Below, in pieces: positions 6,463 through 24,130 of a DNA stretch of 64,000 bases (the first letter of the stretch is position 1; each line of letters begins with the position of its first letter). The notes beneath the pieces are model-generated. The model was not told the origin of the DNA. It saw nothing but the letters and a program-made list of their open reading frames with translations, and did no database searches. Location: contig JAFUCL010000103.1 in NCBI GenBank assembly GCA_017459725.1, positions 67-64,066 on the forward strand, read 5' to 3'. Source of the stretch: Solobacterium sp. Its GTDB lineage: Bacteria; Bacillota_I; Bacilli_A; Erysipelotrichales; Erysipelotrichaceae. The position numbers were made by a program, and so were the translations under genes.

Positions 6463-6500
6463 ACCCGCTATTCTACCATAGATGCACAGACGAAACAAAA

Positions 6501-8118: not shown

Positions 8119-8142
8119 AAAAAGGCGGGATTTCCCGCCTTT
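8119..8142 (-). terminator. Intrinsic terminator of the giant surface protein operon
   Basis: AAAGGCGGGA-AA-TCCCGCCTTT hairpin with T-run on the minus strand, 6 nt after the stop codon. Confidence 0.85.
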
Positions 8143-8148
8143 CGGTGT

Positions 8149-11100
8149 TTATTCGGCTGTTTCATTCTCTTCCTGCTTCTCTTCGTTGCGGCCTGCTATG
8201 ATCAGCACCAGCACGATCTGGATGATCAGCAGAATCGCCATCAGGATCGTCCATCTGTCGAACAGACGCATGGTCCTGCTCATATCCTCGGTGAGGATGA
8301 ACACCACCACGGAGATCACGGCAATCAGGATGGAAATCAGCGTATGCGGCAGACTGTTCTTTTTGCTTTCTTTTTCATCTGCTTCCTCCGCCTTGGCTTC
8401 CGGCGCATCCTTTTCTTCCTCATCCTCCGTATCTTTCTTACGGTTGATCAGGTATACCGCAGCCATGAAGACTGCCGCAAATACGGACGCTGCCGCCGCA
8501 ATCAGGTTAATCAGAGCCCAGTAACCGACCGGTGCGTTTACCAGAGGTACTGACGCTTCATCGAGTTCAACAAGTTCTGCTTCCCCGTCGTCGCTGATCT
8601 GTACCTGGGCAAGGACTTCCTTGTCACGGTCAGGATCACCTGTACGGATCTGCTCTGTTTCTGCGGTAACCGTCGGTTCAGCTGTTACGGCTGCCGGTGT
8701 GCCGGTGCCTGCCGTTGGCTGTACCGGTGCAGGTGTCTGCGGTGTTTCACCGCCGCCATCACCAGGTTCTTCCGGTGCTGCCGGTACAACGACAGGTTCG
8801 GCTGCGGCCGGTCTGACCGGTGTATAGACAACCGTCAGTTCCAGATCACGCTCAGGCATGCCGTTCTCATCGGATACAACAGCATCGTACTGTGCTTCCA
8901 TACCCTCAATGTGCGGGGATATGATCGGACCGAATGCCTGTCCCTTCTGATATCTTGCCCGGAACGGATCCGCCAGGCTTCTGCCGGCTTCATCGAGATA
9001 CCGCACTGTCAGGAGATATGTGCCGGTGATTTCAAGCACACCGTTCTCGACTGTTACCGCAAACTGCTCAGTGACATCATTTCCGGAAGGATCCTTCACC
9101 ACGGCCTGTCCCTTCAGTTTGGCAGGCCAGATGCCTGCTTCCCTTGCGGTGACTGCCGATTCAAGACCGCTGACGGTATATGTCACACCGTTTACTGTGA
9201 AGGAATCCGCCGCGAAGCCGCTGACCGTATGTTCTTCTCCGTCATAGAGAACCTTATCGCTGTTGGCCTGCATGGTGATTTCATACTTGGCATCACGGTT
9301 GGTTACATTGATGGTTCCGAATACGGTTGTGAAGATGTAGTTGCTTTCTTTCGTATTGGCTGCTAGCACGGTTGTGAATGAGTTCTCGCTGGTGCCCGGG
9401 AGTGTACGGGCTGCGGACGGGATGAACTGTGCTCCTTCACCGGACGCAAAGCCATCACCTGTTACAGTGACACCGCCGCCCTGCAGAGGACTGCCGTCAT
9501 ACTTGCGGCTGATGACTGCCGAGGTCAGCGTTACGCGTCTGGGCAAAATGCGGAGTATGCCGTTTTCCGTCTTCACCGCAAACTGCGATGTGACATCATT
9601 GCCCGCATCATCAATCACGGACGGTGTGCCCGTTACCGTCACGGCGTATTCACCGGCATCTGTTCCGGATCCTTCACCGCTGAGACCGAGAACCGTATAT
9701 TTCTTTCCTTCGTATTCGAATGCGGTGTTCTTCAGCCCGCTTACGGTATACTCATCACCGCTGTACAGATACTCACCGCTTCTGGCACTTACGGTAACCA
9801 GAATCCTGGCATCACGGTTGAGGACTGCGAGTCTTCCGTATTCCTTGCGGATGTTGTAGTTCTCTTCGCTGGTGCCGTCATTCAGTGTATACGTGAAGAG
9901 GTTTTCACTTTCACCGACAATTGTTCTGCCGCTGCTGAATCTCCACACAGCACCTTCATTCTGTGCGAAGCCGTCACCCGATACTTCCACTGTTTCATTG
10001 GTCAGGCTTCTGCCGTTATAAGGCATTTCGGCTGAACCGGAGGTCAGGACAACGTTTCGCTTATCGATCTTCAGGATACCCGGGACCGTACGCACGATGA
10101 ACTGTGAAGTCACATCATTGCCTTCCGCATCCCTGACGACCGGAGTGCCCGTCACATGAACCGGATAGCTTCCGGCATTGACTGCCGTAATTCCGGCACT
10201 GAGACCGCTCACTTCGAAGACTGCATTTCCAACCGTAACCGCCAGCGCTTCACCATCAGCTGCTCCGTTTTCAGCGGAATAAATGCCGCTGAGTGTATGT
10301 TCGCTGCCGTCATAGAGCACGGTTCCGGAAGGTCCGGCTACGGTGATTTCGTATTTCGCTGCATCCGGTCTGCCTGTTACTGTCAGGATTCCGCATGCGG
10401 TCGTTACCACATAATCACCGGGTCTTGTGCCTTCGTTGAATGTATAGGTAAACGTATTCTCGGAAACACCCACGATTGTGCGGCTGCCCGATACATGCAC
10501 GGATATGCCGTCACCTTCGGCGAAACCGTCACCGCCGTACAGAACGGCAGGATTGCTGAGCGGTGTGCCGCTGTAGATCTTTTCGGCATCCGCAGAGCGC
10601 AGGGTGATTCTTCTCGGCTTAACCGTCAGGGTTCCCGGTTTGACGGTGACGATGAACTGGTCGCTGACATCGTTGTTCATTTCATCCAGGACAACCGGTG
10701 TTCCTTCAGCCGTAACCGGATAGCTTCCGGCGTGTACTGCTGCGGTATTCACCGTCAGTCCCGTCACGGTATAGACATGCGAAGCAATTCCGAAGCGGTT
10801 GCTGCGGAGAGTTGTCACGGCATGTTCATGACCGTCATACAGTGCTTCAGCCGAGGAAGTCTCCACGGTGATTGCATAGCGTGCGCTGCGGTTGACAACT
10901 GTAAGGCTGCCGTATTCTTCACGGACATCATAGTTGGATGCTGCCGTACCTGTGCGCATCGTCCAGGTGAAAGTATTCTTTGAGACACCCGGCAGGGTCT
11001 GGGTTCCGGTCACTGTGAAATCAGCCCCTTCACCTTCCGCGAAGCCGTCTCCCGTTACGGTGACATTATCCGCTTTCAGTTCATTGCCGCTGTATTCCGC

Positions 11101-14100
11101 TTCTGCATCTGCTGATGTGAAGACGAGGCTGCGGCGGTTGATTTCGAGCATGCCGTTCTGCAGGGTAACGATGAACTGCGAGGTTACATCATTGCCGTTT
11201 TCATCCAGTACAGCCGGGGTGCCGGTGATCGTTACCGGATAGCTGCCTGCCATGGTTGCGGCTGCTTCGGCAGTAATGCCGGTGACTTTGTATTCATGTC
11301 CGTCTGCCGTGAAGGTATCCTTCACAAAGCCGGATACGCTGTGTTCCTTGCCGTCATAGAGTGTTTTGAGACCTGCGGCCTGTACGGTTACTTCGTACTT
11401 CGCTTCACGGCTGCGGACAACAAGTCTGCCCTCTTCCTTGCGGATATTGTAGTTGGCAGCCAGGGTTCCGTCTGTGAGTCTGTAGTCAAATGTATTGGCG
11501 CTGCTTCCGGGGATCGTCTGCGAACCGCTGACACTGTACGCTGCACCTTCTCCTTCCGCAAAACCGCTGCCGAGCACTTCCACTGTACTGCATGTCAGCG
11601 GACTGCCGTCATATTCTCTGATCGCCCCGGCGGAGCGCAGAACCACATCCCTGCGGACGATGGTCAGGGTTCCGTCATGGGTGCTGATGGTGAACTGATC
11701 CGTCACATCATTGCCTGCCGTATCCGTCACCTTCGGTGTACCGGTTACTGCGGCCGGATAGATGCCTGCGTTTTTCTCATTGACACTGACGTTCAGACCG
11801 CCAATCTGATATCTGTGACCGTCTGCTACGACTTCGGTGCCGCGCAGTTCCGTTGCGGAATGTTCGCTGCCGTCATAGACATACGAAGCATCAACTGCGA
11901 ATACGTCTGCCGTGTACTTCTCTTCACCGCTGCGGTCCTTGACTTCCAGCACACCGAACTTTCTGCTGATTTCATAGTCATCTGCAGATGTGCCGCTCTT
12001 CAGGAAGTAATCAAAGCGGTTATCGGCGGTACCCGGCTGCGTTCTTGTTCCGGTAACCGTAATCACGGCACCTTCGTTTTCCGCAAAACCGTCACCTGAG
12101 ATAATGACGCCCTGGTTCTCCTGCAGTCTTGTTGTCAGCGGATCACCGTCGAATGTCTTGTATGCACTGAGGGATTCGAGATGCACTTTGCGGCGGTCGA
12201 TTGTAAGCGTGCCGTTCTGCACACTGACCGCAAACTGTTCCGTCACCTCGGCGCCCGTACTGTCAAAGACACGCGGTGTACCGGAAACGGTAACCGGATA
12301 TTCACCGGCATGTACGGCCGTTGCCTTTGCACTGAGGCCGGCAACCGTATACGTCCTGCCGTCGATTTCAACCTTGTCACTGATCAGTCCGCTGACTGTA
12401 TGCGTGGTTCCGTCGTACTTTGTATGCAGGCTTCTTGCACTGACTGTGACACCGTACGGTACATCACGGTTCAGTACGTTCAGTGATCCGAACAATGTAC
12501 TGATGCTGTAATTATCCGCATTGGTTCCTGCATTCATCGTGTAGGCAAATGTATTCTCAGAGACGCCTACAACGTTCTGGCTTCCGGTGACATCAAATAC
12601 AGCCCCTTCACCTGCCGCAAAGCCGTCTCCGCTCACTGTTACCGTTGAAGCTCTCAGCGGTATGCCGTCATATTCCTTCTCTGCCGAGGCACTGCTCAGC
12701 GTGACACTGCGTTTGGCAATATTCAGCTCGCCATCACGCAGATGCACCGCAAACTGTGAAGTCACATCATTGCCGTGCGCATCCGTGATCACCGGCAAAC
12801 CGGTAATCGCAACCGGATATGTGCCCGCATTGACGGCGTTTGCCGAAGCACTGAGTCCGCTCAGTGTATAGGACTGACCCCCGACGCTGAACTTGCTTCT
12901 GGTGAGACCCGTAACGGTATGTTCCTGACCGTCATAGAGGAAGTTTCCTCCTGCTGCAGTCACTGTCATATCGTATTTCACCTTACGGTCCGTAACCCGC
13001 AGGATACCCGGAACAGCCGTAATCAGATAGTCACCTGCTTCTGCTCCGCCTGCCAGTCTGTAGGTAAATGTATTGGCACTGGTTCCTGCCGTCAGCTGGG
13101 AACCGGTGACATCGTATTCTGCATAATCATCACCCGCAAAGCCGTCTCCGGATACGGTGACAGACGGTGCGGTAAGCGGTGAGCCGTCATATTCCTTCTC
13201 CACGGATGCGGAGGAAAGCGTAATGCGTCTCGGTTTGATCTGCAGTGTGCCGCTGATGCGTTCGACATCAAACTGTGCGGTAACATCATTGCCCTCTTCA
13301 TCAAGAACAACCGCATCACCTGTAATCTCTACAGGATATGTACCGGCATGCAGTCCTTCGGCCGCTGCACTGAGTCCGCTGACCGTATACTGTCTGCCGT
13401 TGACACGGAATGTATCCAGCAGAATACCTTCAACGTTCTGTGTTTCACCGCTGTATACCGTTTCGCGGGAAGCTGCCGTAACCGTAATCTTCAGATGTTC
13501 ATCCGCATTGCGGTCGGTGATTGTCAGCGTTCCGTATTCAGAAGAGATGATGTAGTTTGCTGCACTGGTCTGATCCGCCGGCACATATGTGAATGTGTTC
13601 AGCGAAGAGCCCGGCAGAAGCTGTCTTCCGGTCAGGGTGACACTGACGCCTTCACCCTGTACGAAACCGTCACCGCGGATACTGATGCCGCTGTTGTCGA
13701 GATCTGCCGTTGTCAGTGCCGATCCGTCATAGGCCTTGGCAGCCGATGCGGAAACCAGAACGACACTGCGCTTACTGATGGTTAGGGTTCCCTTTTCAGC
13801 AGTGACCGCAAACTGCGATGTGACATCGTTGCCTGCTTCATCCTTCACCACTGCCGTTCCCCTTACAGGGATGGAATAGGTACCGGCATTCTTCTGTTCG
13901 ATGGAAGCACTGAGTCCGCTGATCCGGTAATTGTTGCCGTCCACCGTGAATGTTTCATTCTCAATACCGCCGGCTTTCTGCATTTCACCGTTATAGACCA
14001 GATCATGATCTGCAGCTTTGACGGTTACCGTATACAGCGCATCACGGTTGGTGACGGTCAGTGTGCCGTACACAACGGATACGGTATAGTTTGCTGCATT

Positions 14101-17100: not shown

Positions 17101-18309
17101 ATCCGCACTTGCTGAATCGGATACTTTCTCAATACTTCCGCTGTTATCGACATGGAATACCGATGCAGCTTCACCCTGCTTAACACCGGCACCCGTAATG
17201 GATACATGCACCGGTTTCTGCGGCTCTATTTCGCTGCCGTTCCGGTCATGGATTGTAATATCATAGGCAACATAGTCGACCAGCTCATTGTCATCACCGA
17301 TTGCACCCTCAATCGCAGAAAGAACATGACCTGCCGATACGATTCTGACCTGTACCGAAGAATTCTCGGGGAGAGCTCCTTCCGGCGCGTCAATCACGAT
17401 TAAAGCACCATCGGATGCAAATGCCTGCAGTGTCATGGCCGGCATCTTTTCTTCTTCCGGTTCTTCTTCCTCAGGTTCTTCTTCCTCAGGTTCTTCTTCC
17501 TTTTCGGGTTTCTCGGTTTTTTCCGGCTTCTCTGTTTTTTCCGGTTTTGCACTTTCTTCCGGTTCTGCTGTCTCCTCAGGTTCCGCGGTTTCTTCAGGTT
17601 CTGCGGTTTCTTCAGGCTCTGCGGTTTCCTCCGGTTTTGCGGTTTCCTGCGGTTCAGCAGTTTCTTCCGGCTGCGCTGTTTCGGCAGGCTGTTCGCTTTC
17701 CTGCGGTTGTGCGCTTGCTTCCGGAGCAGCTGTTTCTTCAGGGACTGCTGTCTCCTGCGGTACGGTTGTCTCGGCCGGAGCAACTGTTTCTTCCGGAGCA
17801 GGTTCCTGGACAGGTTCCGGTTCACTCACCGGCTCCGCTGCCGGTTCAGGTACGGCTGCCGGTTCAGGTTCAGCGACAGGCTCGGGTTCGGGTGCCGGTT
17901 CCGGAACAGGTTCCTCTGCCGGTACTTCCACGACGACCTCGGGTGCCGGTTCTTCTGCCGGTGCCTCGGGAATCACTTCCGGAGCAGGTTCTTCCGCCGG
18001 TGCCTCTGGAACTACTTCCGGAGCAGGCTCTTCAACCACAGGTTCTTCAACAGGCTGCTCTGCTTCTTCAACTACGATCTCCTGCGGTATTTCCTCAGGA
18101 GCTTCTTCTTCGAGGAACACTTCAATTGTTTCTTCTGAAAGTCCCTCTTCTTCCGTGTATGCTTCATCCGTTACAGCTGTTTCATCCGGCAGCTCCGTTG
18201 CATACAGAATCCGTTCTGTTGAGCTGGACAGTCCGTACGTCACTACGACCACCAAAGCTACAAACAACAGCGTAATCCTTCTAAGAATCTTCCGCATTGT
18301 CTTATTCAT
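8149..18309 (-). CDS. Giant (3386 aa) repetitive cell-surface protein, putative adhesin: signal peptide, acidic E/P/A stalk, Big_2-like, InlB-B-like, MucBP-like and MBG-like domains, three C-terminal TM helices
   Basis: Single 10.2 kb ORF; signal peptide ending ILYA; KWKSSDSSVAKVSSAGVVTAL (Ig group 2); FTGWYLD; repeated YDG..GxLxI modules; three hydrophobic segments in the last 130 aa; no LPXTG. Confidence 0.9.
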   Translation of the reverse strand: MNKTMRKILRRITLLFVALVVVVTYGLSSSTERILYATELPDETAVTDEAYTEEEGLSEETIEVFLEEEAPEEIPQEIVVEEAEQPVEEPVVEEPAPEVVPEAPAEEPAPEVIPEAPAEEPAPEVVVEVPAEEPVPEPAPEPEPVAEPEPAAVPEPAAEPVSEPEPVQEPAPEETVAPAETTVPQETAVPEETAAPEASAQPQESEQPAETAQPEETAEPQETAKPEETAEPEETAEPEETAEPEETAEPEESAKPEKTEKPEKTEKPEKEEEPEEEEPEEEEPEEEKMPAMTLQAFASDGALIVIDAPEGALPENSSVQVRIVSAGHVLSAIEGAIGDDNELVDYVAYDITIHDRNGSEIEPQKPVHVSITGAGVKQGEAASVFHVDNSGSIEKVSDSASADAVSFSASGFSTYVVTTTSSVQSDSAEYTLRVGETLKIPQPEVSLWYSSKKWKSSDSSVAKVSSAGVVTALNAGTAVITFETGSGWSGYTTAGTYTVYVQEAVLVPSISVSPVSVSLQGIGDTAVLKAKLNNISSENTIVWTSSDPSVVTVDNGTLTAVSSGTAVVTAAVAPEEDSLYGNTYTASASVNVEFSEYDLYHYGLIPGADANNNNSNADSRWFGLGVSKISGAKDPGPLSLGTVITDYTVGGTVKPLYPDLTYDGVTYHYAQAGSPEAEEYGYYTLQPFRVTVSSGANAGYNSYNPYVSKVHTYHMDYICVLNETSYVSVSFAVKYPYNSQPEGLTDYAQRFTEGTALSAVKRPSAKAVPQTMNYNGISYEFTGWYLDPGYTVPADFSGSLSGNTTFYGGYRATSSRYRVEYYYDGVMDASETIVSSGTPIGTVISSYTDKTRTGFTFSSAEPSSITVDADESKNVIRVYYTKRLVSVKVGHYIQGTDELIVPAETVMKRFGETVEVSPKQIEGYTPRSGAKTVTVSAAGMEIRMEYCINAALQAESLTTVYDGSEHSISGYSVSPAGVVFNGVVCGVSGTDAGTYTNAFADGTIGLIDTTGRYIVTETIPGTLEISRAPVTVKAADSGKTFGEKDPVLEAVITGCKPGEERRIAYTLRRDAGEETGTYVIHSTGNEVQGNYTVSFEDGSFVIEKAGTLSIYASGYTGVYDGAVHSISAQPSVSEGTTVSYSTDNGSTWSEEAPGLKDAGRMTVRIKAENPNYEPAEAEAVIEITPRPVQITILPAAKVFGSADPVLEAEITGVLEGDTIAYTLKREAGEDAGTYAISAEYEKNQGNYEVSFTGSELTVRKGVLSVSAVSGQKAYDGIPLSAGVQGGVPENTVLSYSLDEGNSWTDTAPELTDAGTLVYSLRAENPNYEPAYASGILTVRERRIVLTSASDSRPYNGNPLRNSDVTVGGEGFAAGEGAEFRVTGLQTVVGSSENRFTYGFRSGTNAANYTVSVVYGTLTVTNRDALYTVTVKAADHDLVYNGEMQKAGGIENETFTVDGNNYRISGLSASIEQKNAGTYSIPVRGTAVVKDEAGNDVTSQFAVTAEKGTLTISKRSVVLVSASAAKAYDGSALTTADLDNSGISIRGDGFVQGEGVSVTLTGRQLLPGSSLNTFTYVPADQTSAANYIISSEYGTLTITDRNADEHLKITVTAASRETVYSGETQNVEGILLDTFRVNGRQYTVSGLSAAAEGLHAGTYPVEITGDAVVLDEEGNDVTAQFDVERISGTLQIKPRRITLSSASVEKEYDGSPLTAPSVTVSGDGFAGDDYAEYDVTGSQLTAGTSANTFTYRLAGGAEAGDYLITAVPGILRVTDRKVKYDMTVTAAGGNFLYDGQEHTVTGLTRSKFSVGGQSYTLSGLSASANAVNAGTYPVAITGLPVITDAHGNDVTSQFAVHLRDGELNIAKRSVTLSSASAEKEYDGIPLRASTVTVSGDGFAAGEGAVFDVTGSQNVVGVSENTFAYTMNAGTNADNYSISTLFGSLNVLNRDVPYGVTVSARSLHTKYDGTTHTVSGLISDKVEIDGRTYTVAGLSAKATAVHAGEYPVTVSGTPRVFDSTGAEVTEQFAVSVQNGTLTIDRRKVHLESLSAYKTFDGDPLTTRLQENQGVIISGDGFAENEGAVITVTGTRTQPGTADNRFDYFLKSGTSADDYEISRKFGVLEVKDRSGEEKYTADVFAVDASYVYDGSEHSATELRGTEVVADGHRYQIGGLNVSVNEKNAGIYPAAVTGTPKVTDTAGNDVTDQFTISTHDGTLTIVRRDVVLRSAGAIREYDGSPLTCSTVEVLGSGFAEGEGAAYSVSGSQTIPGSSANTFDYRLTDGTLAANYNIRKEEGRLVVRSREAKYEVTVQAAGLKTLYDGKEHSVSGFVKDTFTADGHEYKVTGITAEAAATMAGSYPVTITGTPAVLDENGNDVTSQFIVTLQNGMLEINRRSLVFTSADAEAEYSGNELKADNVTVTGDGFAEGEGADFTVTGTQTLPGVSKNTFTWTMRTGTAASNYDVREEYGSLTVVNRSARYAITVETSSAEALYDGHEHAVTTLRSNRFGIASHVYTVTGLTVNTAAVHAGSYPVTAEGTPVVLDEMNNDVSDQFIVTVKPGTLTVKPRRITLRSADAEKIYSGTPLSNPAVLYGGDGFAEGDGISVHVSGSRTIVGVSENTFTYTFNEGTRPGDYVVTTACGILTVTGRPDAAKYEITVAGPSGTVLYDGSEHTLSGIYSAENGAADGEALAVTVGNAVFEVSGLSAGITAVNAGSYPVHVTGTPVVRDAEGNDVTSQFIVRTVPGILKIDKRNVVLTSGSAEMPYNGRSLTNETVEVSGDGFAQNEGAVWRFSSGRTIVGESENLFTYTLNDGTSEENYNIRKEYGRLAVLNRDARILVTVSARSGEYLYSGDEYTVSGLKNTAFEYEGKKYTVLGLSGEGSGTDAGEYAVTVTGTPSVIDDAGNDVTSQFAVKTENGILRILPRRVTLTSAVISRKYDGSPLQGGGVTVTGDGFASGEGAQFIPSAARTLPGTSENSFTTVLAANTKESNYIFTTVFGTINVTNRDAKYEITMQANSDKVLYDGEEHTVSGFAADSFTVNGVTYTVSGLESAVTAREAGIWPAKLKGQAVVKDPSGNDVTEQFAVTVENGVLEITGTYLLTVRYLDEAGRSLADPFRARYQKGQAFGPIISPHIEGMEAQYDAVVSDENGMPERDLELTVVYTPVRPAAAEPVVVPAAPEEPGDGGGETPQTPAPVQPTAGTGTPAAVTAEPTVTAETEQIRTGDPDRDKEVLAQVQISDDGEAELVELDEASVPLVNAPVGYWALINLIAAAASVFAAVFMAAVYLINRKKDTEDEEEKDAPEAKAEEADEKESKKNSLPHTLISILIAVISVVVFILTEDMSRTMRLFDRWTILMAILLIIQIVLVLIIAGRNEEKQEENETAE
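9025..14292 (-). repeat. Ten tandem intragenic repeats of about 173 aa, each made of two MBG-like modules
   Basis: Ten GNDVTxQF-type motifs at about 13823, 13282, 12762, 12242, 11702, 11183, 10666, 10110, 9591 and 9072 (spacing about 517-556 bp), each preceded by LTSASxxKxYDG..GDGFAxGEG..ENTFxY. Confidence 0.9.
17449..18190 (-). repeat. Low-complexity Glu/Pro/Ala stalk with short tandem repeats
   Basis: At least six imperfect 18-bp units (ETAEPE) at 17563-17670; two exact 15-bp units ttcttcttcctcagg at 17461-17490; three EEPAPEV-type units. Confidence 0.85.
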
Positions 18310-18484
18310 ACGAGTCCTCGTTTCTATGATCTTTATCGTTCATACTGTTCCGGTAAGACTTGATTCTCTGTTTAATACTTTTCTCTTCCTGACGGTAGCG
18401 AAGATAACGCAGAATAAATGACACAGCCAGCAGTGCAATGCCCAGAATGAGCAGAATATCTGAAATCCATCCCGTCCGCATCAT
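18302..18484 (-). CDS. Single-TM microprotein (about 60 aa)
   Basis: AAGGAGGT RBS; start overlaps the upstream stop (ATGA); TM ILLILGIALLAVSFIL then basic tail; stop overlaps the giant gene start (ATGAATAA). Confidence 0.7.
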   Translation of the reverse strand: MMRTGWISDILLILGIALLAVSFILRYLRYRQEEKSIKQRIKSYRNSMNDKDHRNEDSYE

Positions 18485-18621
18485 CCTAAACCTCCTTCCG
18501 GATACTTCCGCCGGCATTCCTCCCGGTACCGTCTGCTCTGCACTTCATGATAAATGCGGCCGGCCAGGAAAATGATGACGGCAAGCACCGCACATAACAA
18601 AGCCCATACATCAGCGCTCAT
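18481..18621 (-). CDS. Single-TM microprotein (about 46 aa; alternative start 18627)
   Basis: GAAAGCGGG RBS-like; TM VWALLCAVLAVIIFLAG then R-rich tail; start and stop both overlap neighbours. The longer 114-aa version in the ORF track overlaps the upstream gene and is unlikely. Confidence 0.65.
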   Translation of the reverse strand: MSADVWALLCAVLAVIIFLAGRIYHEVQSRRYREECRRKYPEGGLG

Positions 18622-19021
18622 GATCATCACCCGCTTTCCGGGTATATGCCAGTTCAGCTTCAGCAGCTTCCCTGCGCAGCGTAAAGAGTTTCTGGTCTGC
18701 ATGGTAAAAATACACGGTATAGAACACCGAACCCAGCAGCAGCACGATTCCCATGAGCAGATGCTCGGTTCCGTTTCTGCCCGGTGAATCCGGTGAAGCC
18801 GCCAGCGGAACTTTTTCCTCTTCAATATCTTCGGCCGGAATATCCTCCACGACCGTGATCAGCAGCTCCTTCTCAGGTTCCGGTGATGGTGTTGTTTCGG
18901 CTGTTTCCTCCGCCGCAACGGTGATCTGCGAAGGCAGAGATATCATCACACTCATCGCAAAAAACAGACACAATGCGGTCAGTGCGGTCAGTAGATATCT
19001 TTTTATTCTGTTCATGTTCAT
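18611..19021 (-). CDS. Small secreted/membrane protein (136 aa) with DIEEEKVPLAASP motif and C-terminal TM
   Basis: Signal peptide ending TVAA, short acidic ectodomain, VPLA motif, TM LLMGIVLLLGSVFYTVYFY, charged tail. Confidence 0.75.
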   Translation of the reverse strand: MNMNRIKRYLLTALTALCLFFAMSVMISLPSQITVAAEETAETTPSPEPEKELLITVVEDIPAEDIEEEKVPLAASPDSPGRNGTEHLLMGIVLLLGSVFYTVYFYHADQKLFTLRREAAEAELAYTRKAGDDHER

Positions 19022-19025
19022 AGGC

Positions 19026-20225
19026 TTACCTGCTTCTCTGTTTCAGTGTAAAAGCAATATGCAGTGTGTTCCCGATATGATCCGGAATATAAACATCACT
19101 GCTTATTTGCGGGTATTCAAAGACGATTTCACCTGTTTCACTGTCATACCGCAGCGGTTTGATGATGGTGCCGCTGATATCCCTGGCATAAACACCGCGG
19201 TAATTGACACCTATGCCTTCATCCTTTACGTACAGAATGACTTCACCGTTTTCCGTACGGCTCTCGCTCAGCACCGGTCCTTTCGCATCAACTGCGGTTA
19301 CCGGATACACGGTATGGGTATTCTGTCTGTTGATCAGTTCCACCTCAATCGTCATATCCGCATTCCGGATCGGCTCAACGGTAAAGATTTTTGCATCCGC
19401 TTCATAGACCGGAAGACTGTGACTGCGGATTCTGGCAGTGACACGCCTGACCGGCAGGAACGACTTCACCGAGATCGTGTAAACAGGAAGACCCCTGCTG
19501 CCAAGATCCACGGAAGATACATCGTATTCCGGCAGAATAAACAGCATCGGCAAAGCCAGGAACAGTATTCCCGCTCCGACCGTTATTCTCTTCTGCAGGG
19601 AAAAGCGCTCTTTCCGGTAAACCGCATAGGAAGACAAAGCTTCCATCGGCACCGTATTTGCCTTCCAGCCGCAGATATCAAACGCATGGCTCAGCGTCTG
19701 CAGCAATCGGACGGGATCGGCCTTTTCCGTATGCACGAAAGGAATACTGTCTGTAACGGATACAGTACTGCGTTTGCCTGCAGAGATGCCGAGATGGCGG
19801 TCTGCCGATTTCAGATACCGCTTCACCATGGACCGGCTCACATTGAGCAGATCTGCGATTAAGGAGTTGCTCATGTTCTGTCTGTACTTCATAACAGCCA
19901 TCTGTGATTCACTCAGCGGCAATGAAAGCAGACGGATCATTTCCTCATCTTCCGTATCCGCACGTTCCATGGCACAGCGAAGACACTGGCGCAGTGCCCA
20001 GGGCAAAAACAGTTCGGGATTCTGCAGTGATGGAATTCCCTTCAGAATCATCACAACCGAACTCTGCATGAGCTCCCACACGGTTTCCCGGTCGTCACTC
20101 AGATGTCTCAGATAGATATAGAAACGCTCTGCACAGGCCGCATACAGCTCCGCAAAGGAATTGCTGCTGCCGGTCATAGCCTTACGGACTATATCATTCA
20201 GATATGCCTGGTCCAGTCTCTCCAC
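19026..20225 (-). CDS. ECF sigma-70-like protein fused to a TM helix and a predicted extracellular beta-rich domain
   Basis: Sigma-2-like SFAELY..F..W and sigma-4-like LLSLP..MS..IA.LL.VS...VK..L; TM ITVGAGILFLALPMLFIL; C-terminal VDAKGPVL (Ig-like); GTG start 20225 after GGGAG (track start 20273). Confidence 0.72.
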   Translation of the reverse strand: MERLDQAYLNDIVRKAMTGSSNSFAELYAACAERFYIYLRHLSDDRETVWELMQSSVVMILKGIPSLQNPELFLPWALRQCLRCAMERADTEDEEMIRLLSLPLSESQMAVMKYRQNMSNSLIADLLNVSRSMVKRYLKSADRHLGISAGKRSTVSVTDSIPFVHTEKADPVRLLQTLSHAFDICGWKANTVPMEALSSYAVYRKERFSLQKRITVGAGILFLALPMLFILPEYDVSSVDLGSRGLPVYTISVKSFLPVRRVTARIRSHSLPVYEADAKIFTVEPIRNADMTIEVELINRQNTHTVYPVTAVDAKGPVLSESRTENGEVILYVKDEGIGVNYRGVYARDISGTIIKPLRYDSETGEIVFEYPQISSDVYIPDHIGNTLHIAFTLKQRSR

Positions 20226-20316
20226 ACTGTTCTCCCGTCTCCTGTATATCATATATCGCAGGCGAATAATCATAAGTGCCTGCTGTTACCGGTAAAATTG
20301 ATGCTTTCTGTGACTG

Positions 20317-21000
20317 TTAAGCGGATGCACGCCGGTCTGACAGTGCCACAAGCTCCGCCAGTGAGGCTGCCTGTTCCTTCTGCTGCAGAGCTGTTCCGGC
20401 ATGGTATTTAATAGCCGCATCGGGATGCGCCTCGTTATAGTGATTGATTCCCGTTTCTACAGCTTCCAGAAATCCGGCTATCCGCTTCTCCGTACTTTCA
20501 CGGAAAATCGCAACAAACTTGTTGCCGCCGTTTCTGCCCAGGAAGCAGATTCCCCCAGCCGCATTGCTGAGGGTCTCCGAGAATGCCTGAATCGCCGCAT
20601 CTCCTCCCGCATGACCGTGCGCTTTGTTGATCTCCGACAGATTGAGCAGATCAAGGGTTACACAGCCCATATCCGCCGGTATGACGCCTTCCGCAAACCT
20701 CTGGATATAAAGGTCCACACTGTAACGGTTGGCAATACCGGTCAGGGCATCGGAATACACCGCATGGTCAAGCTCCGAATTCTCCCGGCGCAGATCTGCA
20801 TACGAATTGAAGTCATAGAACAGAAAAGCAAACGAAATGCCGAGCACAACCCACAGCAAAAGTGCCAGCATACGTATACTGCGGTCTGCCGCAATCATGC
20901 TGTACAGTTCATGATTGTTGAAAATAATCAGCAGTCCTGCCGCCGTACACAATACCAGCAGAATCAGCTGTACGGTCTTGATCACATCAAAACGCTTCAT
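20317..21000 (-). CDS. Two-TM GGDEF-domain protein with degenerate active site (GGNKF)
   Basis: DALTGIANR, INKAHGHAGGDAAI and GRNGGNKFVAIF; two N-terminal TM helices; start overlaps the lepB stop (ATGA). Confidence 0.85.
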   Translation of the reverse strand: MKRFDVIKTVQLILLVLCTAAGLLIIFNNHELYSMIAADRSIRMLALLLWVVLGISFAFLFYDFNSYADLRRENSELDHAVYSDALTGIANRYSVDLYIQRFAEGVIPADMGCVTLDLLNLSEINKAHGHAGGDAAIQAFSETLSNAAGGICFLGRNGGNKFVAIFRESTEKRIAGFLEAVETGINHYNEAHPDAAIKYHAGTALQQKEQAASLAELVALSDRRASA

Positions 21001-21554
21001 GAATCACCACCTGCTTCCCGCATCAGCCTGCGCAGACTGCCGCCGCTGTACACAAGAATAATCCTTCCCTTGATCTGCCGCAGATTCACTTCACCGAACG
21101 TCCGTGAATCAAGCGAAACGGTGCGGTTATCTCCCAGCACAAAGACATTGCCTTCCCTGACCGCATACGGGAATATGACTGTTCCCGTCTCGGTCTCCGT
21201 CTGTCCGCGCGCCCACGGTTCATCCAGCACCTCACCGTTGACAATAACACTGCCATCCGCCAGATCCACCGTATCACCGCCCTGTGCAATCACCCGCTTG
21301 ATATAGTAATCACCGGAAGGAACACGCATGGAAACCACATCACCGTAACGGTAATCTTTCCCTGTACGCAGATAGACGACAATATCACCGTCCATAAGAT
21401 TCGGATACATCGACTCACCGCCGACAACCGATATACCGATGACAAAACGGAATACAATGACCAATGCTAAAATAAGCACAATAAAGAAAAGCGAATCCCG
21501 CAGCCAGTCGAGCTTCAGACCATTGTACCGTTCCAGTAATCTTCTGTTTCTCAC
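20997..21554 (-). CDS. lepB: Signal peptidase I (S26)
   Basis: Catalytic GESMYP (Ser) and YIKRV (Lys), GDNRxxSLDSR box; one N-terminal TM; start uncertain (GTG 21554 favoured, track 21620). Confidence 0.92.
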   Translation of the reverse strand: MRNRRLLERYNGLKLDWLRDSLFFIVLILALVIVFRFVIGISVVGGESMYPNLMDGDIVVYLRTGKDYRYGDVVSMRVPSGDYYIKRVIAQGGDTVDLADGSVIVNGEVLDEPWARGQTETETGTVIFPYAVREGNVFVLGDNRTVSLDSRTFGEVNLRQIKGRIILVYSGGSLRRLMREAGGDS

Positions 21555-21560
21555 ATATAA

Positions 21561-21566
21561 ATTATA
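21561..21566 (-). promoter_or_regulatory. -10 box (TATAAT) heading the lepB-to-giant-protein operon
   Basis: Perfect TATAAT in the AT-rich gap after ftsZ, 6 nt before the in-frame GTG; no strong -35. Confidence 0.5.
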
Positions 21567-21638
21567 CTTTGGACAAGCATAATCGAAAACGGATTCGCAC
21601 ATAAAAAACCGCGTTTTCACGCGGTTTGTGAGTAATCA

Positions 21639-22748
21639 TTAACCTCTGTTGAAGAAATTCGGGATACCGGAACGGTCATCATCCTCTTCTTCGACAACGG
21701 AAGAGATTCTGCCGAAGCTGAGATCATCATCATCACTGCTGGCAACGACACCAGAACCGGAAATCGGATTCTTTTCAGAAGCAGGACCATCTGTTTCAAT
21801 CATCGTAGCACGCGGCAGATCGAAGCCTGTAGCGATAACCGTAACGATGATGGACTCACCGATCTTATCATTGATGGCAACACCGAAGATGATATCGATA
21901 TCATTACCGGCTGCCTGACGGATGAAGTCAACAGCTTCCTGTGCATCGTATGCGGACATGCTTGCACCGCCGGTAACGTTGACGATTGCACTCTTGGCAC
22001 CTGTAATCTGTGCTTCAAGCAGCGGAGACTGAATAGCCTTCGTAGCTGCATCCTTAGCCTTGTTTTCACCGGAAGCCATACCGATACCGATGAGAGCACT
22101 GCCCTGACCTTCCATGACACTCTTGATATCAGCGAAGTCAAGGTTGATCATAGCCGGTACAGCAATCAGATCAGTAATTGTCTGAACACCCTGGCGCAGG
22201 ATGTTGTCCGCTTCTTTAAATGCATCTTCAAAAGGTATATGACCGATAACTTCCAGAACTTTGTTGTTGGAAATAATAATCAGACTGTCTACATATTCTT
22301 TGAGCTGTTCCAGACCCTGTTCAGCCTGGATCATTCTCTTACGGCCTTCAAAGCTGAACGGCTTTGTGACAATACCGACTGTCAGGCATCCGAGCTCTTT
22401 TGCAATCTTTGCAAACAGAGGAGATGCACCTGTACCGGTACCGCCGCCAAGACCGGCTGTCAGGAAGATCATATCTGCACCTTCCATTGCCTTCTTGATA
22501 TCAGCTTCGCTTTCAACTGCTGCCTTACGGCCGTTGTCAGGATTTCCGCCGGCACCGAGACCTTCTCTGCCGAGCTGAATCTTATTGGCTACAGGAGAAA
22601 CATCAAGAGCCTGCAGATCGGTGTTTGCTACATAGAATTCAACACCCTGCACGCCTTCCTGCACCATGCGGTTCACTGCATTGCTTCCGGCGCCGCCAAC
22701 ACCGAATACCTTAATCTTTGCAATCTGATTGTACGATAAATCTGCCAT
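21639..22748 (-). CDS. ftsZ: Cell division protein FtsZ
   Basis: GVGGAGSNAVNRM, GLGAGGNP, GGGTGTG tubulin signature, INLDFAD, C-terminal IPNFF. Confidence 0.99.
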   Translation of the reverse strand: MADLSYNQIAKIKVFGVGGAGSNAVNRMVQEGVQGVEFYVANTDLQALDVSPVANKIQLGREGLGAGGNPDNGRKAAVESEADIKKAMEGADMIFLTAGLGGGTGTGASPLFAKIAKELGCLTVGIVTKPFSFEGRKRMIQAEQGLEQLKEYVDSLIIISNNKVLEVIGHIPFEDAFKEADNILRQGVQTITDLIAVPAMINLDFADIKSVMEGQGSALIGIGMASGENKAKDAATKAIQSPLLEAQITGAKSAIVNVTGGASMSAYDAQEAVDFIRQAAGNDIDIIFGVAINDKIGESIIVTVIATGFDLPRATMIETDGPASEKNPISGSGVVASSDDDDLSFGRISSVVEEEDDDRSGIPNFFNRG

Positions 22749-24019: not shown

Positions 24020-24130
24020 ACTAAAACTCCTTCCGTAAACACATAAAAATTTTATCACAAGAATGAGTGATTAAAAAGATAAATACCTGTAAAACTTGTG
24101 CATATTCATCGCTATTCTTGCTTTTTGTGA

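What the first reader, a model, noticed from the sequence alone, without database searches (positions are those of the whole stretch)
8149..21570. Candidate new system: signal peptidase + degenerate GGDEF + membrane-tethered ECF sigma + microproteins + giant repeat surface protein in one coupled operon
Seen in sequence: seven minus-strand ORFs follow one TATAAT (21561-21566) and end at one terminator (8119-8142). Four of the six junctions overlap start/stop codons, one is a 4-nt gap, and only GGDEF-to-sigma is longer (about 90 nt). Established knowledge: giant adhesins are often controlled by c-di-GMP and by proteolytic release (LapA/LapD/LapG in Pseudomonas, with a degenerate GGDEF-EAL receptor), and ECF sigmas are activated by regulated proteolysis. 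Inference: this may be a Gram-positive analogue in which a dedicated peptidase, a non-catalytic GGDEF and a sensor-sigma fusion control display, shedding or transcription of the giant protein. I do not recognise this combination as a described system, but I could not search the literature.
Basis: partly seen in the sequence, partly recalled or inferred. Interest (0 to 1): 0.85.

Follow-up and report, generated by a model that had tools for sequence, protein, structure and literature searches.

The report
Adhesin operon with membrane-tethered sigma factor
A rumen bacterium carries a tightly packed, evolutionarily conserved seven-gene operon that couples a signal peptidase, an inactive "diguanylate cyclase" look-alike and a membrane-anchored sigma factor to a giant surface adhesin; the combination has not been described and looks like a new way of wiring cell-surface sensing to adhesin production.

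Summary

Gene order is conserved in about 30 species-level genomes from ruminant guts. S26 peptidase, GGNKF protein, sigma fusion and a 136-aa membrane protein occur in every locus that is long enough. The giant adhesin follows in about 17 of 26.

- **Sigma protein:** it is an ECF-type sigma fused to an anti-sigma-like single-pass sensor with two Ig-like ectodomains. Four genomes encode the two halves as separate genes.
- **GGDEF protein:** it is a pseudo-enzyme, with GRNGGN(K/R)F invariant even in distant relatives.
- **Peptidase:** its catalytic residues are intact.
- **Adhesin:** it ends in a 3-TM "FILTED" anchor (NCBIfam NF052597), which is widespread and not specific to the module.

In Lachnospiraceae the same quartet sits beside giant adhesins that share this one's unusual signal peptide. 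There it is joined by a transglutaminase-like lipoprotein and a PilC/PilT pseudopilus cluster.

My best reading is a sigma/anti-sigma signalling module activated by proteolysis, gated by the pseudo-GGDEF, that controls adhesin-related genes. The mechanism is inferred, not shown. It is not a Lap-system member. I found no description in the literature. I rate it a new variant of a known kind, with moderately high interest.

The parts
21606..21627 (-). Intrinsic terminator of the upstream ftsA-ftsZ unit (9-bp stem, T-run). It marks the upstream boundary of the module.
   Evidence: ftsZ and ftsA are not upstream of the module in any other locus.
21561..21566 (-). TATAAT -10 element, 6 nt before the GTG start of the first gene. 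Probably a sigma-A-type promoter giving a leaderless mRNA.
   Evidence: Sequence. A -10-like hexamer lies 6-7 nt before the peptidase start codon in 13 related loci and 9-10 nt before it in two more. No experimental transcription start site is available.
20997..21554 (-). Type I signal peptidase (S26, bacterial type), 185 aa, with one N-terminal TM helix. The catalytic Ser (GESMYP), Lys (YIKRV) and GDNRxxSxDSR box are intact.
   Evidence: Pfam PF10502 113.6 bits; TIGR02227 120.4 bits, above its cut-off of 47. Catalytic motifs are conserved in 28 orthologues at 60-71% identity. An orthologue 49% identical sits beside the Lachnospiraceae version of the module.
20317..21000 (-). Two-TM pseudo-diguanylate cyclase, 227 aa. 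It has the GGDEF fold with GRNGGNKF in place of GG(D/E)EF and no RxxD inhibitory site.
   Evidence: PF00990 59 bits. GGN(K/R)F is invariant in 28 of 28 orthologues and in distant relatives L112, L114, L115 and L120.
19791..20225 (-). ECF-type sigma part (sigma-2 and sigma-4 domains) of the 415-aa fusion protein. The full ORF is 19026-20273.
   Evidence: AF2 model with pLDDT 84.8. Foldseek matches SigW, CnrH, AlgU, RpoE and SigK at E about 1e-4. NCBIfam and Pfam sigma hits fall below their cut-offs. It is 30% identical (E 4e-20) to the separate sigma of L120, which carries Pfam Sigma70_r4_2/r4 hits (r2 and Sigma70_ECF only faint); the separate sigma of L112 carries Sigma70_ECF and r4_2.
19029..19790 (-). 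Anti-sigma-like part of the fusion. It comprises a linker helix, an invariant juxtamembrane segment (NTVPMEALSSYAVYRKERFSLQ), one TM helix (residues about 210-240) and two beta-sandwich (Ig/FN3-like) ectodomains ending in YIPDHIGNTLH.
   Evidence: It is encoded as a separate gene in L025, L028, L029 and L030. About 400 representative clusters contain it, mostly as stand-alone proteins of about 240 aa.
18611..19021 (-). p136: signal peptide, acidic stretch, conserved VVEDIPAEDIEExxVPLAA motif, one TM helix and a charged cytoplasmic tail.
   Evidence: No family hit. Found directly after the sigma gene in 24-26 related loci.
18481..18621 (-). mic1: 46-aa single-TM microprotein, start overlapping the p136 stop.
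   Evidence: Called by an independent gene caller. Similar ORFs occur at the same position in at least 10 loci, though sequence conservation is weak.
18302..18484 (-). mic2: 60-aa single-TM microprotein (LLDxIPV-TM-FLxRxxRYRxEEKxL).
   Evidence: Homologues occur in at least 15 loci, including loci that lack the giant gene.
8149..18309 (-). Giant surface protein, 3386 aa. In order it has a conserved signal peptide (..TYGLSSSTERILYA|TE), a 250-aa Glu/Pro-rich stretch, Big_2 and MBG_2 domains, ten repeats of about 175 aa, a Pro-rich stalk and a C-terminal 3-TM anchor.
   Evidence: Orthologues follow the module in about 17 of 26 loci. The signal-peptide motif SxDR(V/I/L)LxA(T/E) is shared with the giants beside the Lachnospiraceae modules.
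8173..8520 (-). FILTED domain (residues 3264-3379): WALINL-TM1, acidic cytoplasmic loop, TM2 ending in FILTEDM, DRWT-TM3.
   Evidence: NCBIfam NF052597, 105.9 bits against a cut-off of 40. Alignments. 292 relatives were found in metagenome contigs.
8121..8142 (-). Intrinsic terminator after the giant gene (AAAGGCGGG-AAAT-CCCGCCTTT plus Ts). It marks the downstream boundary of the module.

Best explanation
This is a conserved, self-contained envelope module of ruminant-gut Clostridia, transcribed as one probably leaderless mRNA from a housekeeping-type promoter.

**Shown by sequence and comparative data.** The operon encodes:
- an active type I signal peptidase;
- a membrane-anchored pseudo-GGDEF protein;
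- an ECF-type sigma factor covalently fused to its own anti-sigma-like single-pass sensor with two Ig-like ectodomains;
- one to three small single-pass membrane proteins;
- a giant repeat adhesin held in the membrane by a FILTED 3-TM anchor.

**Inferred mechanism.**
- The sigma domain is kept inactive at the membrane by its fused anti-sigma-like part.
- A cue sensed outside by the Ig-like ectodomains licenses a first cut on the outer face by the operon's own signal peptidase. The cue could be the state of the adhesin or of the small VPLA-motif protein p136. Housekeeping or specialised signal peptidases do the same for RsiV and RsiP.
- An intramembrane protease then releases the sigma domain, which switches on adhesin-related genes.
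- The pseudo-GGDEF sits on the cytoplasmic face. It most likely binds the invariant juxtamembrane segment of the anti-sigma part and gates release, possibly in response to a guanine nucleotide.
- The same peptidase probably also removes the adhesin's unusually conserved signal peptide.
For: - Operon structure and boundaries.
- The order peptidase, GGNKF, sigma, p136 is conserved in all 28 informative loci from about 30 species, while the flanking genes vary. The giant adhesin lies downstream in about 17 of 26.
- Sigma fold plus TM plus tandem beta-sandwich domains.
- In four independent genomes the sigma part and the TM/ectodomain part are separate genes that break at the same position. This is the canonical sigma/anti-sigma layout.
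- The ectodomain family has about 400 representative clusters, mostly stand-alone proteins of about 240 aa. In 6 of 6 contexts that could be read, a GGN(K/R)F gene is adjacent; in 4 of them a separate ECF sigma lies between the two, in L115 the sigma-like part is fused to the ectodomain protein, and in L116 a split sigma gene lies upstream of the GGDEF-like gene.
- An orthologous S26 peptidase (49% identity) lies next to the module in Lachnospiraceae loci L118-L121. The adjacent giants in L116 and L120 share the adhesin's signal-peptide motif, which other FILTED proteins lack.
- The peptidase's catalytic residues are intact in all orthologues.
- Precedents: signal peptidase as site-1 protease for RsiV and RsiP/SipP (PMC8844934); fused sigma/anti-sigma IutY and ECF52 released by proteolysis (PMC8999054).
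- Metatranscriptome contigs span the lepB/GGDEF and p136/mic1 junctions. This evidence is weak.
Against: - No cleavage, release or regulon has been shown. Everything beyond anatomy and conservation is inference.
- The extracellular juxtamembrane stretch of the fusion (LP.Y.V(S/T).) has no consistent AXA-type signal-peptidase site across the family.
- No ECF-type promoter was found in or around the operon. Its own promoter looks sigma-A-like, so the sigma's targets are unknown.
- The peptidase is missing next to the triad in some relatives (L114, L116), so it is not an obligatory partner.
- The peptidase is the most conserved gene (60-71% identity) and could simply be the cell's housekeeping enzyme. 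I could not count S26 paralogues per genome.
- The window's sigma part scores below the curated cut-offs of the sigma models.
- Nine related loci keep the core but have no adhesin gene beside it.
Confidence: 0.45

Rival explanations
1. Dedicated maturation module. The peptidase is there mainly to cleave the adhesin's and p136's signal peptides, as a cognate peptidase/cargo pair like SipW with TasA/TapA. The sigma/anti-sigma and pseudo-GGDEF proteins are an ordinary envelope-stress or surface-sensing regulator that is not a substrate of the peptidase.
For: - The adhesin's signal peptide is strikingly conserved, with a long c-region: SxDR(V/I/L)LxA|(T/E). This holds in the rumen clade and in the Lachnospiraceae giants, while the adjoining acidic region is not conserved.
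- p136 has a canonical (V/A)xA|E site in all orthologues.
- In L006, proteins with SipW-dependent-type signal peptides lie directly upstream of the peptidase gene.
- The fusion protein has no clear peptidase site.
Against: - The peptidase stays in the core in nine loci that have no adhesin gene beside it.
- The cleavage sites (Leu at -3, Ala at -1) look acceptable to a general signal peptidase.
- The peptidase is of the ordinary bacterial type, not the SipW/ER type. TIGR02228 scores 32 bits against a cut-off of 51.85.
Confidence: 0.25
2. One reading: a Gram-positive analogue of LapA/LapD/LapG. The degenerate GGDEF protein senses c-di-GMP and controls a protease that sheds or retains the giant adhesin.
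For: - Giant adhesin, degenerate membrane GGDEF and protease lie in one operon.
- In related loci a transglutaminase-fold (clan CA-like) lipoprotein is encoded directly after the anti-sigma-like gene or upstream of the peptidase.
- A VPL(A/V) motif precedes the membrane anchor in both the adhesin and p136. It could be a shedding site.
Against: - There is no EAL, HAMP or periplasmic sensor domain, and the protein is only 227 aa.
- There is no RxxD site, and in distant relatives the guanine-contacting Asp is also lost.
- The window has no LapG-like or transglutaminase-like gene.
- The adhesin is Sec-dependent and anchored by three TM helices. It is not held in an outer-membrane pore.
- The invariant genomic partner of the GGNKF protein is a sigma/anti-sigma pair, not a protease.
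Confidence: 0.08
3. Fortuitous operon. The S26 is the housekeeping signal peptidase and the other genes merely share its transcript, with no functional coupling between peptidase, pseudo-GGDEF, sigma fusion and adhesin.
For: - The peptidase is the most conserved gene and has all the features of a general SPase I.
- The operon promoter is housekeeping-type.
- The adhesin is absent from a third of the loci.
Against: - Order and adjacency are kept in 28 of 28 loci while both flanks vary freely.
- Start and stop codons overlap.
- The same four families re-associate in a different arrangement in Lachnospiraceae.
- The pseudo-GGDEF/sigma/anti-sigma triad is conserved down to 30-40% identity.
Confidence: 0.1

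Closest known systems
Fused sigma/anti-sigma ECF factors (IutY of Pseudomonas putida, ECF243; SCO4117 and the ECF48/52/53 groups of Actinobacteria)
   Same: An ECF sigma domain is joined through a cytoplasmic linker and TM helix to an extracytoplasmic sensor domain. The model is release by regulated proteolysis (PMC8999054).
   Different: Different lineage (Clostridia). No FecR-like or zinc-finger anti-sigma domain was detected. The ectodomain is two Ig-like domains of a family without a Pfam model. It has obligate pseudo-GGDEF and signal-peptidase neighbours. Fused and split forms coexist within the same family.
Signal-peptidase-triggered activation of ECF sigmas (sigmaV-RsiV; sigmaP-RsiP with the specialised peptidase SipP)
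   Same: A single-pass anti-sigma whose first, extracellular cut is made by a type I signal peptidase. SipP is a specialised paralogue with a non-canonical site, VQS (PMC8844934).
   Different: Here the peptidase gene is in the same operon, which I did not find stated for sipP. The anti-sigma has no DUF4179 domain. No cleavage site could be recognised, and nothing has been tested experimentally.
c-di-GMP-armed anti-sigma RsiG with sigma-WhiG (Streptomyces)
   Same: A guanine-nucleotide signalling component is coupled directly to a sigma/anti-sigma switch (PMC7005675).
   Different: RsiG itself binds c-di-GMP and no GGDEF-fold protein is part of that complex. Here a membrane pseudo-GGDEF is the partner, and its ligand, if any, is unknown.
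LapA/LapD/LapG adhesin retention system
   Same: A giant repeat adhesin with a degenerate GGDEF-containing membrane protein and a protease encoded together. Related loci add a transglutaminase-fold lipoprotein.
   Different: No EAL/HAMP receptor, no calcium-dependent LapG-type protease in the window, no T1SS/RTX adhesin and no outer membrane. The partner of the GGDEF-like protein is a sigma factor.
tapA-sipW-tasA (Bacillus subtilis), and SipA/LepA of streptococcal pilus islands (from my own knowledge)
   Same: A signal-peptidase homologue is encoded in the same operon as the surface or matrix protein it serves.
   Different: SipW is ER/archaeal-type and its cargo carries a recognisable SipW-type signal peptide. 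Here the peptidase is bacterial-type, and the adhesin and p136 do not match that signal-peptide model.
FILTED domain-containing surface proteins (NCBIfam NF052597)
   Same: The giant protein's C-terminal 3-TM anchor is a clear member.
   Different: The family is a generic anchor found on many unrelated surface proteins in gut and digester Clostridia. Only 1 of 80 sampled FILTED loci carries the module.

Membership tests
ECF (group 4) sigma-70 factors | Sigma-2 and sigma-4 domains only, with the typical fold | tested here: met
   In the AF2 model, residues 22-161 form two helical domains. Foldseek matches SigW, CnrH, AlgU, RpoE and SigK at E 1e-4 to 1e-3 and TM-score about 0.5 on the target.
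ECF (group 4) sigma-70 factors | Score above the curated cut-off of a sigma-70/ECF sequence model | tested here: not met
   For the window protein, Sigma70_r4_2 scores 18.1 against 25.7 and TIGR02937 scores 26.9 against 42.9. Many orthologues, and the separate sigma genes of relatives, do carry precomputed Pfam r4/r4_2/ECF hits.
ECF (group 4) sigma-70 factors | Binds RNA polymerase core and directs promoter-specific transcription | not testable with these tools
   No candidate ECF-type target promoter was found.
Fused sigma/anti-sigma ECFs activated by proteolysis (IutY, ECF52 type) | Sigma domain followed in one polypeptide by a TM helix and an extracytoplasmic domain | tested here: met
   The split form in four genomes shows that the C-terminal part is an independent module.
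Fused sigma/anti-sigma ECFs activated by proteolysis (IutY, ECF52 type) | Recognisable anti-sigma domain (FecR-like or zinc-binding ASD) | tested here: not met
   No Pfam or NCBIfam hit in residues 162-415, or in the stand-alone homologues. There is only a conserved helix (187-201) and a juxtamembrane motif.
Signal-peptidase-dependent RIP (RsiV, RsiP/SipP type) | Catalytically competent type I signal peptidase | tested here: met
   TIGR02227 scores 120.4 against a cut-off of 47. The Ser, Lys and GDNR/DSR boxes are conserved in 28 orthologues.
Signal-peptidase-dependent RIP (RsiV, RsiP/SipP type) | Signal-peptidase cleavage site just outside the anti-sigma's TM helix | tested here: inconclusive
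   The segment LP.(Y/F).(V/I)(S/T). fits the -3/-1 rule in some members (VSS, SVS, TVS) but not in others.
Signal-peptidase-dependent RIP (RsiV, RsiP/SipP type) | Cleavage of the anti-sigma by the peptidase, followed by a site-2 protease | not testable with these tools
   This needs experiment. I did not search for a RasP-type gene.
Diguanylate cyclases (GGDEF) | GGDEF-domain fold | tested here: met
   PF00990 scores 59 bits against 23.8; TIGR00254 scores 45.7 against 37.4.
Diguanylate cyclases (GGDEF) | Catalytic GG(D/E)EF motif | tested here: not met
   GGNKF in the window. GGN(K/R)F is invariant in 28 orthologues and in distant relatives.
Diguanylate cyclases (GGDEF) | RxxD allosteric c-di-GMP site five residues before the motif | tested here: not met
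   The sequence is GGICFLGRNGGNKF, with no RxxD.
Lap system (LapA/LapD/LapG) | LapD-type receptor: periplasmic domain, HAMP and degenerate GGDEF + EAL | tested here: not met
   The protein is 227 aa, with two TM helices and a GGDEF-like domain only. The LapD model scores E 5.9e-6 and 24.9 bits against a cut-off of 1020.
Lap system (LapA/LapD/LapG) | LapG-type periplasmic cysteine protease | tested here: not met
   None in the 64-kb window. A Transglut_core lipoprotein exists in related loci L002 and L118-L121.
Lap system (LapA/LapD/LapG) | T1SS-secreted RTX adhesin with an N-terminal retention module | tested here: not met
   The adhesin has a Sec-type signal peptide and a C-terminal 3-TM anchor, with no RTX or T1SS genes nearby.
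FILTED domain-containing surface protein (NCBIfam NF052597) | Model score above the curated cut-off; C-terminal WALINL-TM1 / TM2-F(I/F)LTEDM / DKWT-TM3 | tested here: met
   105.9 bits against 40, residues 3264-3379. Motifs aligned.
SipW-type cognate peptidase/cargo pair | ER/archaeal-type signal peptidase, and cargo with a SipW-dependent-type signal peptide | tested here: not met
   TIGR02228 scores 32.1 against 51.85. Neither the adhesin nor p136 matches TIGR04088. That signal-peptide type does occur in genes upstream of the module in L006.

The most novel reading that the evidence does not exclude
The quartet of pseudo-GGDEF, ECF sigma, Ig-domain anti-sigma and S26 peptidase may be the sensory and regulatory arm of an undescribed Gram-positive surface-display system. 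In that system a PilC/PilT-type pseudopilus machine and a transglutaminase-fold lipoprotein install, remodel or release giant FILTED-anchored adhesins. The pseudo-GGDEF would act as a new kind of cytoplasmic co-regulator of an anti-sigma factor. The window would hold the regulatory arm plus cargo, with the machine encoded elsewhere in the genome.
Probability: 0.25. Interest if true: 0.85.

Novelty: new variant of a known kind. Interest (0 to 1): 0.62.

Why it matters
- **Signalling.** ECF sigma/anti-sigma pairs and degenerate GGDEF proteins are two of the largest families of poorly understood bacterial signalling proteins. Here a pseudo-GGDEF is an invariant genomic partner of a sigma/anti-sigma pair across two families of gut Clostridia. 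That points to a direct, testable link between a cyclase-fold pseudo-enzyme and sigma-factor release.
- **Peptidase.** The operon-encoded signal peptidase offers a genetically tidy case for the emerging idea that signal peptidases act as site-1 proteases in sigma activation.
- **Adhesin.** The cargo is a 3,386-residue adhesin of uncultured rumen bacteria. The module therefore bears on how fibre- or host-associated gut anaerobes control attachment.
- **Tractability.** A cultured strain, 'Lachnospiraceae bacterium FE2018', carries the core, so experiments are feasible.

Tried and rejected
1. **FILTED as the defining partner of the module.** Rejected. A word-based protein search with the anchor gave only 4 small proteins. 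The metagenome scan then gave 292 relatives, and only 1 of 80 sampled loci carried the core.
2. **ftsA-ftsZ linkage, and a relation to the spoIIGA-sigE position downstream of ftsZ.** Rejected. No other locus has ftsZ upstream.
3. **An internal promoter in the GGDEF-sigma gap** (TTTACC-16-TATGAT). Not conserved. The gap is 2-80 nt in other loci.
4. **An ECF-type autoregulated promoter upstream of the operon.** Not found. The conserved element is a sigma-A-like -10 next to the start codon.
5. **TGACG direct repeats as a shared operator.** They occur upstream of FILTED genes in L004 and L010, but are not enriched upstream of the peptidase gene across loci.
6. **The element CCCTTTTTC...CTTATATA upstream of Lachnospiraceae giants as the sigma's promoter.** It is absent from the window and its spacing varies from 14 to 20 nt, so I do not accept it as a -35/-10 pair.
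7. **A special signal peptide common to all FILTED proteins.** Rejected. Only the module-associated giants share it.
8. **RNA evidence for co-transcription.** Only two short metatranscriptome contigs span junctions, which is too weak to count as proof.
9. **Further conserved neighbours of the module**, such as a site-2 protease. None was found within 10 kb on either side in 30 loci.

Full report
**1. What is in the window**

On the minus strand, ftsA (22763-24058) and ftsZ (21639-22748) end at a clean intrinsic terminator at 21627-21606. Seven ORFs follow:
- an S26 signal peptidase (20997-21554);
- a GGDEF-like protein (20317-21000);
- a 415-aa sigma-like protein (19026-20273);
- a 136-aa protein (18611-19021);
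- two microproteins of 46 aa (18481-18621) and 60 aa (18302-18484);
- a 3386-aa protein (8149-18309).

They are closed by a hairpin plus T-run at 8142-8121. A NUDIX gene and other unrelated genes follow. A public contig that is 99% identical was annotated by an independent gene caller with the same seven genes, microproteins included.

The start choices in the gap are ATG 20273, or GTG 20225 with a GGGAGA ribosome-binding site that aligns with homologue starts.

The peptidase ORF has no ATG upstream of its catalytic serine. Its homologues align from a GTG at 21554, only 6 nt after TATAAT (21561-21566). In 13 related loci a -10-like hexamer lies 6-7 nt before the peptidase start codon, and in two more 9-10 nt. 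The operon is therefore probably read from a sigma-A-type promoter as a leaderless mRNA.

**2. Conservation**

The 415-aa protein has 171 full-length homologues at 41-50% identity, all from gut and rumen metagenomes or MAGs. A scan of one genome per species returned 30 loci. Their NCBI labels vary: Mogibacterium, Anaerovoracaceae, Eubacterium, Lachnospiraceae, Erysipelotrichaceae. They include the cultured 'Lachnospiraceae bacterium FE2018'.
- In all 28 loci with enough upstream sequence, the order peptidase, GGDEF-like, sigma is kept. The peptidase is 60-71% identical and the GGDEF-like protein 49-62%.
- A p136 homologue follows in 24-26 loci.
- mic2-like and mic1-like microproteins follow in many loci, but not in the Mogibacterium-type ones.
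- A giant orthologue follows in about 17 of 26 informative loci. Nine loci keep the core but continue with unrelated genes.
- Both flanks differ between loci, and no further conserved neighbour exists. ftsZ is upstream only in the window.

**3. The parts**

*Peptidase.* It is a bacterial-type SPase I (TIGR02227, 120 bits). The Ser (G[DE]SM.P), Lys (YY[IV]KRV) and GDNR..S.DSR boxes are intact in every orthologue.

*GGDEF-like protein.* It has two N-terminal TM helices and a GGDEF fold (PF00990, 59 bits). The active-site motif reads GRNGGNKF in all 28 orthologues (once GGNRF), and there is no RxxD site. It is a long-conserved pseudo-enzyme, not a decaying cyclase.

*Sigma-like protein.* An AlphaFold2 model built on 25 homologues (pLDDT 84.8) shows two helical domains (residues 22-161). 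These are followed by a confident helix (187-201), a TM helix (about 210-240) and two beta-sandwich domains (249-408). Foldseek pairs the N-terminal half with the ECF sigmas SigW, CnrH, AlgU, RpoE and SigK, and the C-terminal half with Ig/FN3 tandems. Sequence models of sigma-2 and sigma-4 hit only below their cut-offs. The most conserved stretch is the cytoplasmic juxtamembrane segment NTVPMEALSSYAVYRKERFSLQ, together with the ectodomain.

*p136.* It has a signal peptide with a canonical (V/A)xA|E site, an acidic stretch, the motif VVEDIPAEDIEExxVPLAA, one TM helix and a charged tail.

*Giant protein.* In order it has:
- a signal peptide whose c-region is unusually long and conserved, SxDR(V/I/L)LxA|(T/E);
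- 250 residues that are 36% Glu and 20% Pro;
- Big_2 and MBG_2 domains;
- ten repeats of about 175 residues;
- a Pro-rich stalk with a VPLV motif;
- three C-terminal TM helices that match NCBIfam NF052597, 'FILTED domain-containing surface protein', at 105.9 bits against a cut-off of 40.

I found no paper mentioning FILTED.

**4. Fusion equals sigma plus anti-sigma**

In four independent MAGs (L025, L028, L029, L030) the sigma part ends with a stop after ...KHLxKxxF. The linker/TM/ectodomain part starts as a separate gene a few dozen bases further on. This is the canonical sigma/anti-sigma layout.

A full HMMER search with the C-terminal 240 residues against 1.84 billion representatives found 402 clusters, 88 of them below 1e-30. 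Most are stand-alone proteins of 235-245 aa at 30-40% identity, annotated at best as hypothetical Lachnospiraceae proteins with no Pfam domain.

In every context I could read, a GGDEF-like gene carrying GRNGGN(K/R)F is adjacent to the ectodomain protein's gene. These contexts are L112, L114, L115, L116/117, L118/119 and L120/121. In L112, L114, L118/119 and L120/121 a separate ECF sigma recognised by Pfam lies between the two. In L115 the sigma-like part is fused to the ectodomain protein, and in L116/117 a split sigma gene and a 248-aa gene lie upstream of the GGDEF-like gene.

The deep, conserved core is therefore a triad: two-TM pseudo-GGDEF, ECF sigma and single-pass Ig-domain anti-sigma-like protein. 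The rumen clade fused the last two.

**5. The wider neighbourhood**

In Lachnospiraceae loci L118-L121 the triad is followed by these genes:
- a Transglut_core lipoprotein;
- a GspF/PilC-like protein;
- four small pseudopilin-like proteins, one of them DUF4860;
- a PilT-family ATPase (418 bits against a cut-off of 319);
- a convergent S26 peptidase.

That peptidase is 49% identical to the window's over its full length, including the N-terminal KYxGxKxxWLxD motif.

In L116/117 and L120/121 a giant adhesin of 2,600-3,200 aa is transcribed divergently from the triad. It carries Flg_new and CLIPPER domains, plus MBG_2 and Big_2 in L121, and begins with the same signal-peptide motif, SSD(S/A)(F/Y)LRA(S/T).

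One rumen-clade locus, L002, has the lipoprotein, PilC, four small proteins, PilT, a winged-helix/BTAD regulator with a degenerate GGDEF-like tail, and a 155-aa gene directly upstream of the peptidase on the same strand.

The 64-kb window contains none of these extra genes.

Conversely, FILTED anchors are common: 292 relatives in metagenome contigs from termite, human, rumen and digester samples. Only 1 of 80 sampled loci carries the sigma/p136/mic2 core, whereas 11-14 carry the lipoprotein/PilC/PilT cluster. Ordinary FILTED proteins have ordinary signal peptides.

The anchor is therefore generic. What tracks the quartet is the particular giant adhesin with the SxDRVLxA signal peptide.

**6. 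How it most likely works**

*Shown.* Anatomy, operon structure, conservation, pseudo-enzyme status, intact peptidase, sigma fold, and the fused versus split forms.

*Inferred.* The fusion protein is an inactive, membrane-held sigma that must be cut free. This is documented for the fused sigma/anti-sigma IutY and proposed for ECF52-type factors (PMC8999054). Type I signal peptidases are established site-1 proteases for RsiV and, in the form of the specialised paralogue SipP, for RsiP (PMC8844934). A signal peptidase fixed in the same operon is the obvious candidate for the first cut.

The pseudo-GGDEF is cytoplasmic, membrane-anchored and invariably adjacent. It most plausibly contacts the invariant juxtamembrane segment and gates release. 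A nucleotide input is conceivable, because the rumen-clade proteins keep the guanine-contacting Asn and Asp. That input is weakened by loss of the Asp in distant relatives. RsiG/c-di-GMP/sigma-WhiG is the only known precedent for nucleotide control of an anti-sigma (PMC7005675).

The peptidase may in addition, or instead, mature the adhesin and p136.

*Weak points.* There is no consistent peptidase site outside the TM helix. No target promoter was found. The peptidase is absent beside some triads. I could not establish whether this S26 is a paralogue or the housekeeping enzyme. RNA evidence is limited to two short metatranscriptome contigs that cross the lepB/GGDEF and p136/mic1 junctions.

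**7. Comparison with what is known, and verdict**

The module is not a Lap system. The LapD architecture, a LapG-type protease in the window and a T1SS/RTX adhesin were all tested and not met. It behaves like a fused ECF sigma/anti-sigma unit with a signal-peptidase trigger. It does not meet the sequence-model thresholds of ECF families, and it has no recognisable anti-sigma domain.

Literature searches found nothing on FILTED or DUF4860. The ECF classification paper does not mention 'GGDEF' or 'signal peptidase'.

I rate it a real, conserved, undescribed module and a new variant of a known kind. My confidence is high in its existence and composition, and moderate to low in the specific mechanism.

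The most novel reading still open is that it is the regulatory arm of an undescribed system built around a pseudopilus and a transglutaminase-like lipoprotein that handles giant adhesins in Gram-positive gut anaerobes.

Noticed in passing
window 21552-21566 (-); L001, L003, L004, L006, L008-L013, L016, L018, L019, L024 upstream of the peptidase gene: The first gene of the operon appears to be translated from a leaderless mRNA. A TATAAT-like -10 lies 6-7 nt before the start codon in 13 loci (9-10 nt in L003 and L024), which is GTG in the window and in L001. There is no Shine-Dalgarno sequence.
   Followed up: partly
L025, L028, L029, L030 around 10001-11500: In four MAGs the sigma part and the TM/ectodomain part of the fusion protein are separate, adjacent genes that break at the same position. 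Fused and split forms therefore coexist within one family.
   Followed up: yes
L002 2295-8700; L118-L121 10741-16315; metagenome loci L032, L035, L043, L045, L048, L070-L072, L074, L076, L081: A recurrent uncharacterised cluster lies next to FILTED adhesin genes. It comprises a Transglut_core lipoprotein, a GspF/PilC-like protein, four small pseudopilin-like proteins (one DUF4860) and a PilT-family ATPase, often with a winged-helix/BTAD regulator. No paper mentions DUF4860.
   Followed up: partly
L004 150-415 and 2540-3080; L010 3190-3310: Direct repeats of AAAATGACG(G), spaced about 11-12 bp apart, lie upstream of three FILTED-protein genes in Mogibacterium-type loci. They may be an activator binding site. 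They are not found upstream of the peptidase gene or in the window's operon.
   Followed up: partly
L114 6353-6382 (-), L116 7681-7707 (-), L120 8097-8126 (-), L030 11502-11534 (+): A shared element, CCCTTTT(T/G)C - N14-20 - CTTATAT(A/T), followed by A(A/G)GGAT in three of the four, lies upstream of giant adhesin genes in three Lachnospiraceae lineages and upstream of the p136-like gene in L030. The CCCTT/AAGGG ends are inverted repeats. It is absent from the window.
   Followed up: partly
L006 5283-8494 and 11601-11909: In L006 the giant gene is missing and only a 102-aa ORF remains, corresponding to FILTED TM2-TM3. It may be a deletion remnant or a mini-FILTED protein. Directly upstream of the peptidase gene lie four small secreted proteins. 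The one tested, at 5283-5861, has a SipW-dependent-type signal peptide (TIGR04088, above its cut-off).
   Followed up: partly
L108 941-2185; L039 984-1757: Other, unrelated ECF sigma-TM-ectodomain fusion proteins are encoded immediately after FILTED-protein genes in termite-gut contigs. Membrane-tethered sigmas may be a recurrent partner of FILTED adhesins.
   Followed up: no
L002 6997-8223: The BTAD-type regulator next to the pseudopilus cluster has a C-terminal remnant of a GGDEF domain (RYSKGQYLVLLANTT). It is a second, different pseudo-GGDEF in the same neighbourhood.
   Followed up: no
window 18611-19021 and 8545-8600 (-); A2 alignment: A motif (I/V)x(D/E)(D/E)x(V/T/I)P(L/M)(A/V) precedes the membrane anchor in p136, in the giant adhesin and in unrelated FILTED proteins. 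p136 looks like a miniature copy of the adhesin's stalk plus first TM helix. Its function is unknown.
   Followed up: no
window 3487-6498 (-): A 1003-aa secreted protein with a glucosaminidase domain lies two genes downstream of the module. It looks like ordinary cell-wall enzymology and is not conserved next to the module.
   Followed up: no
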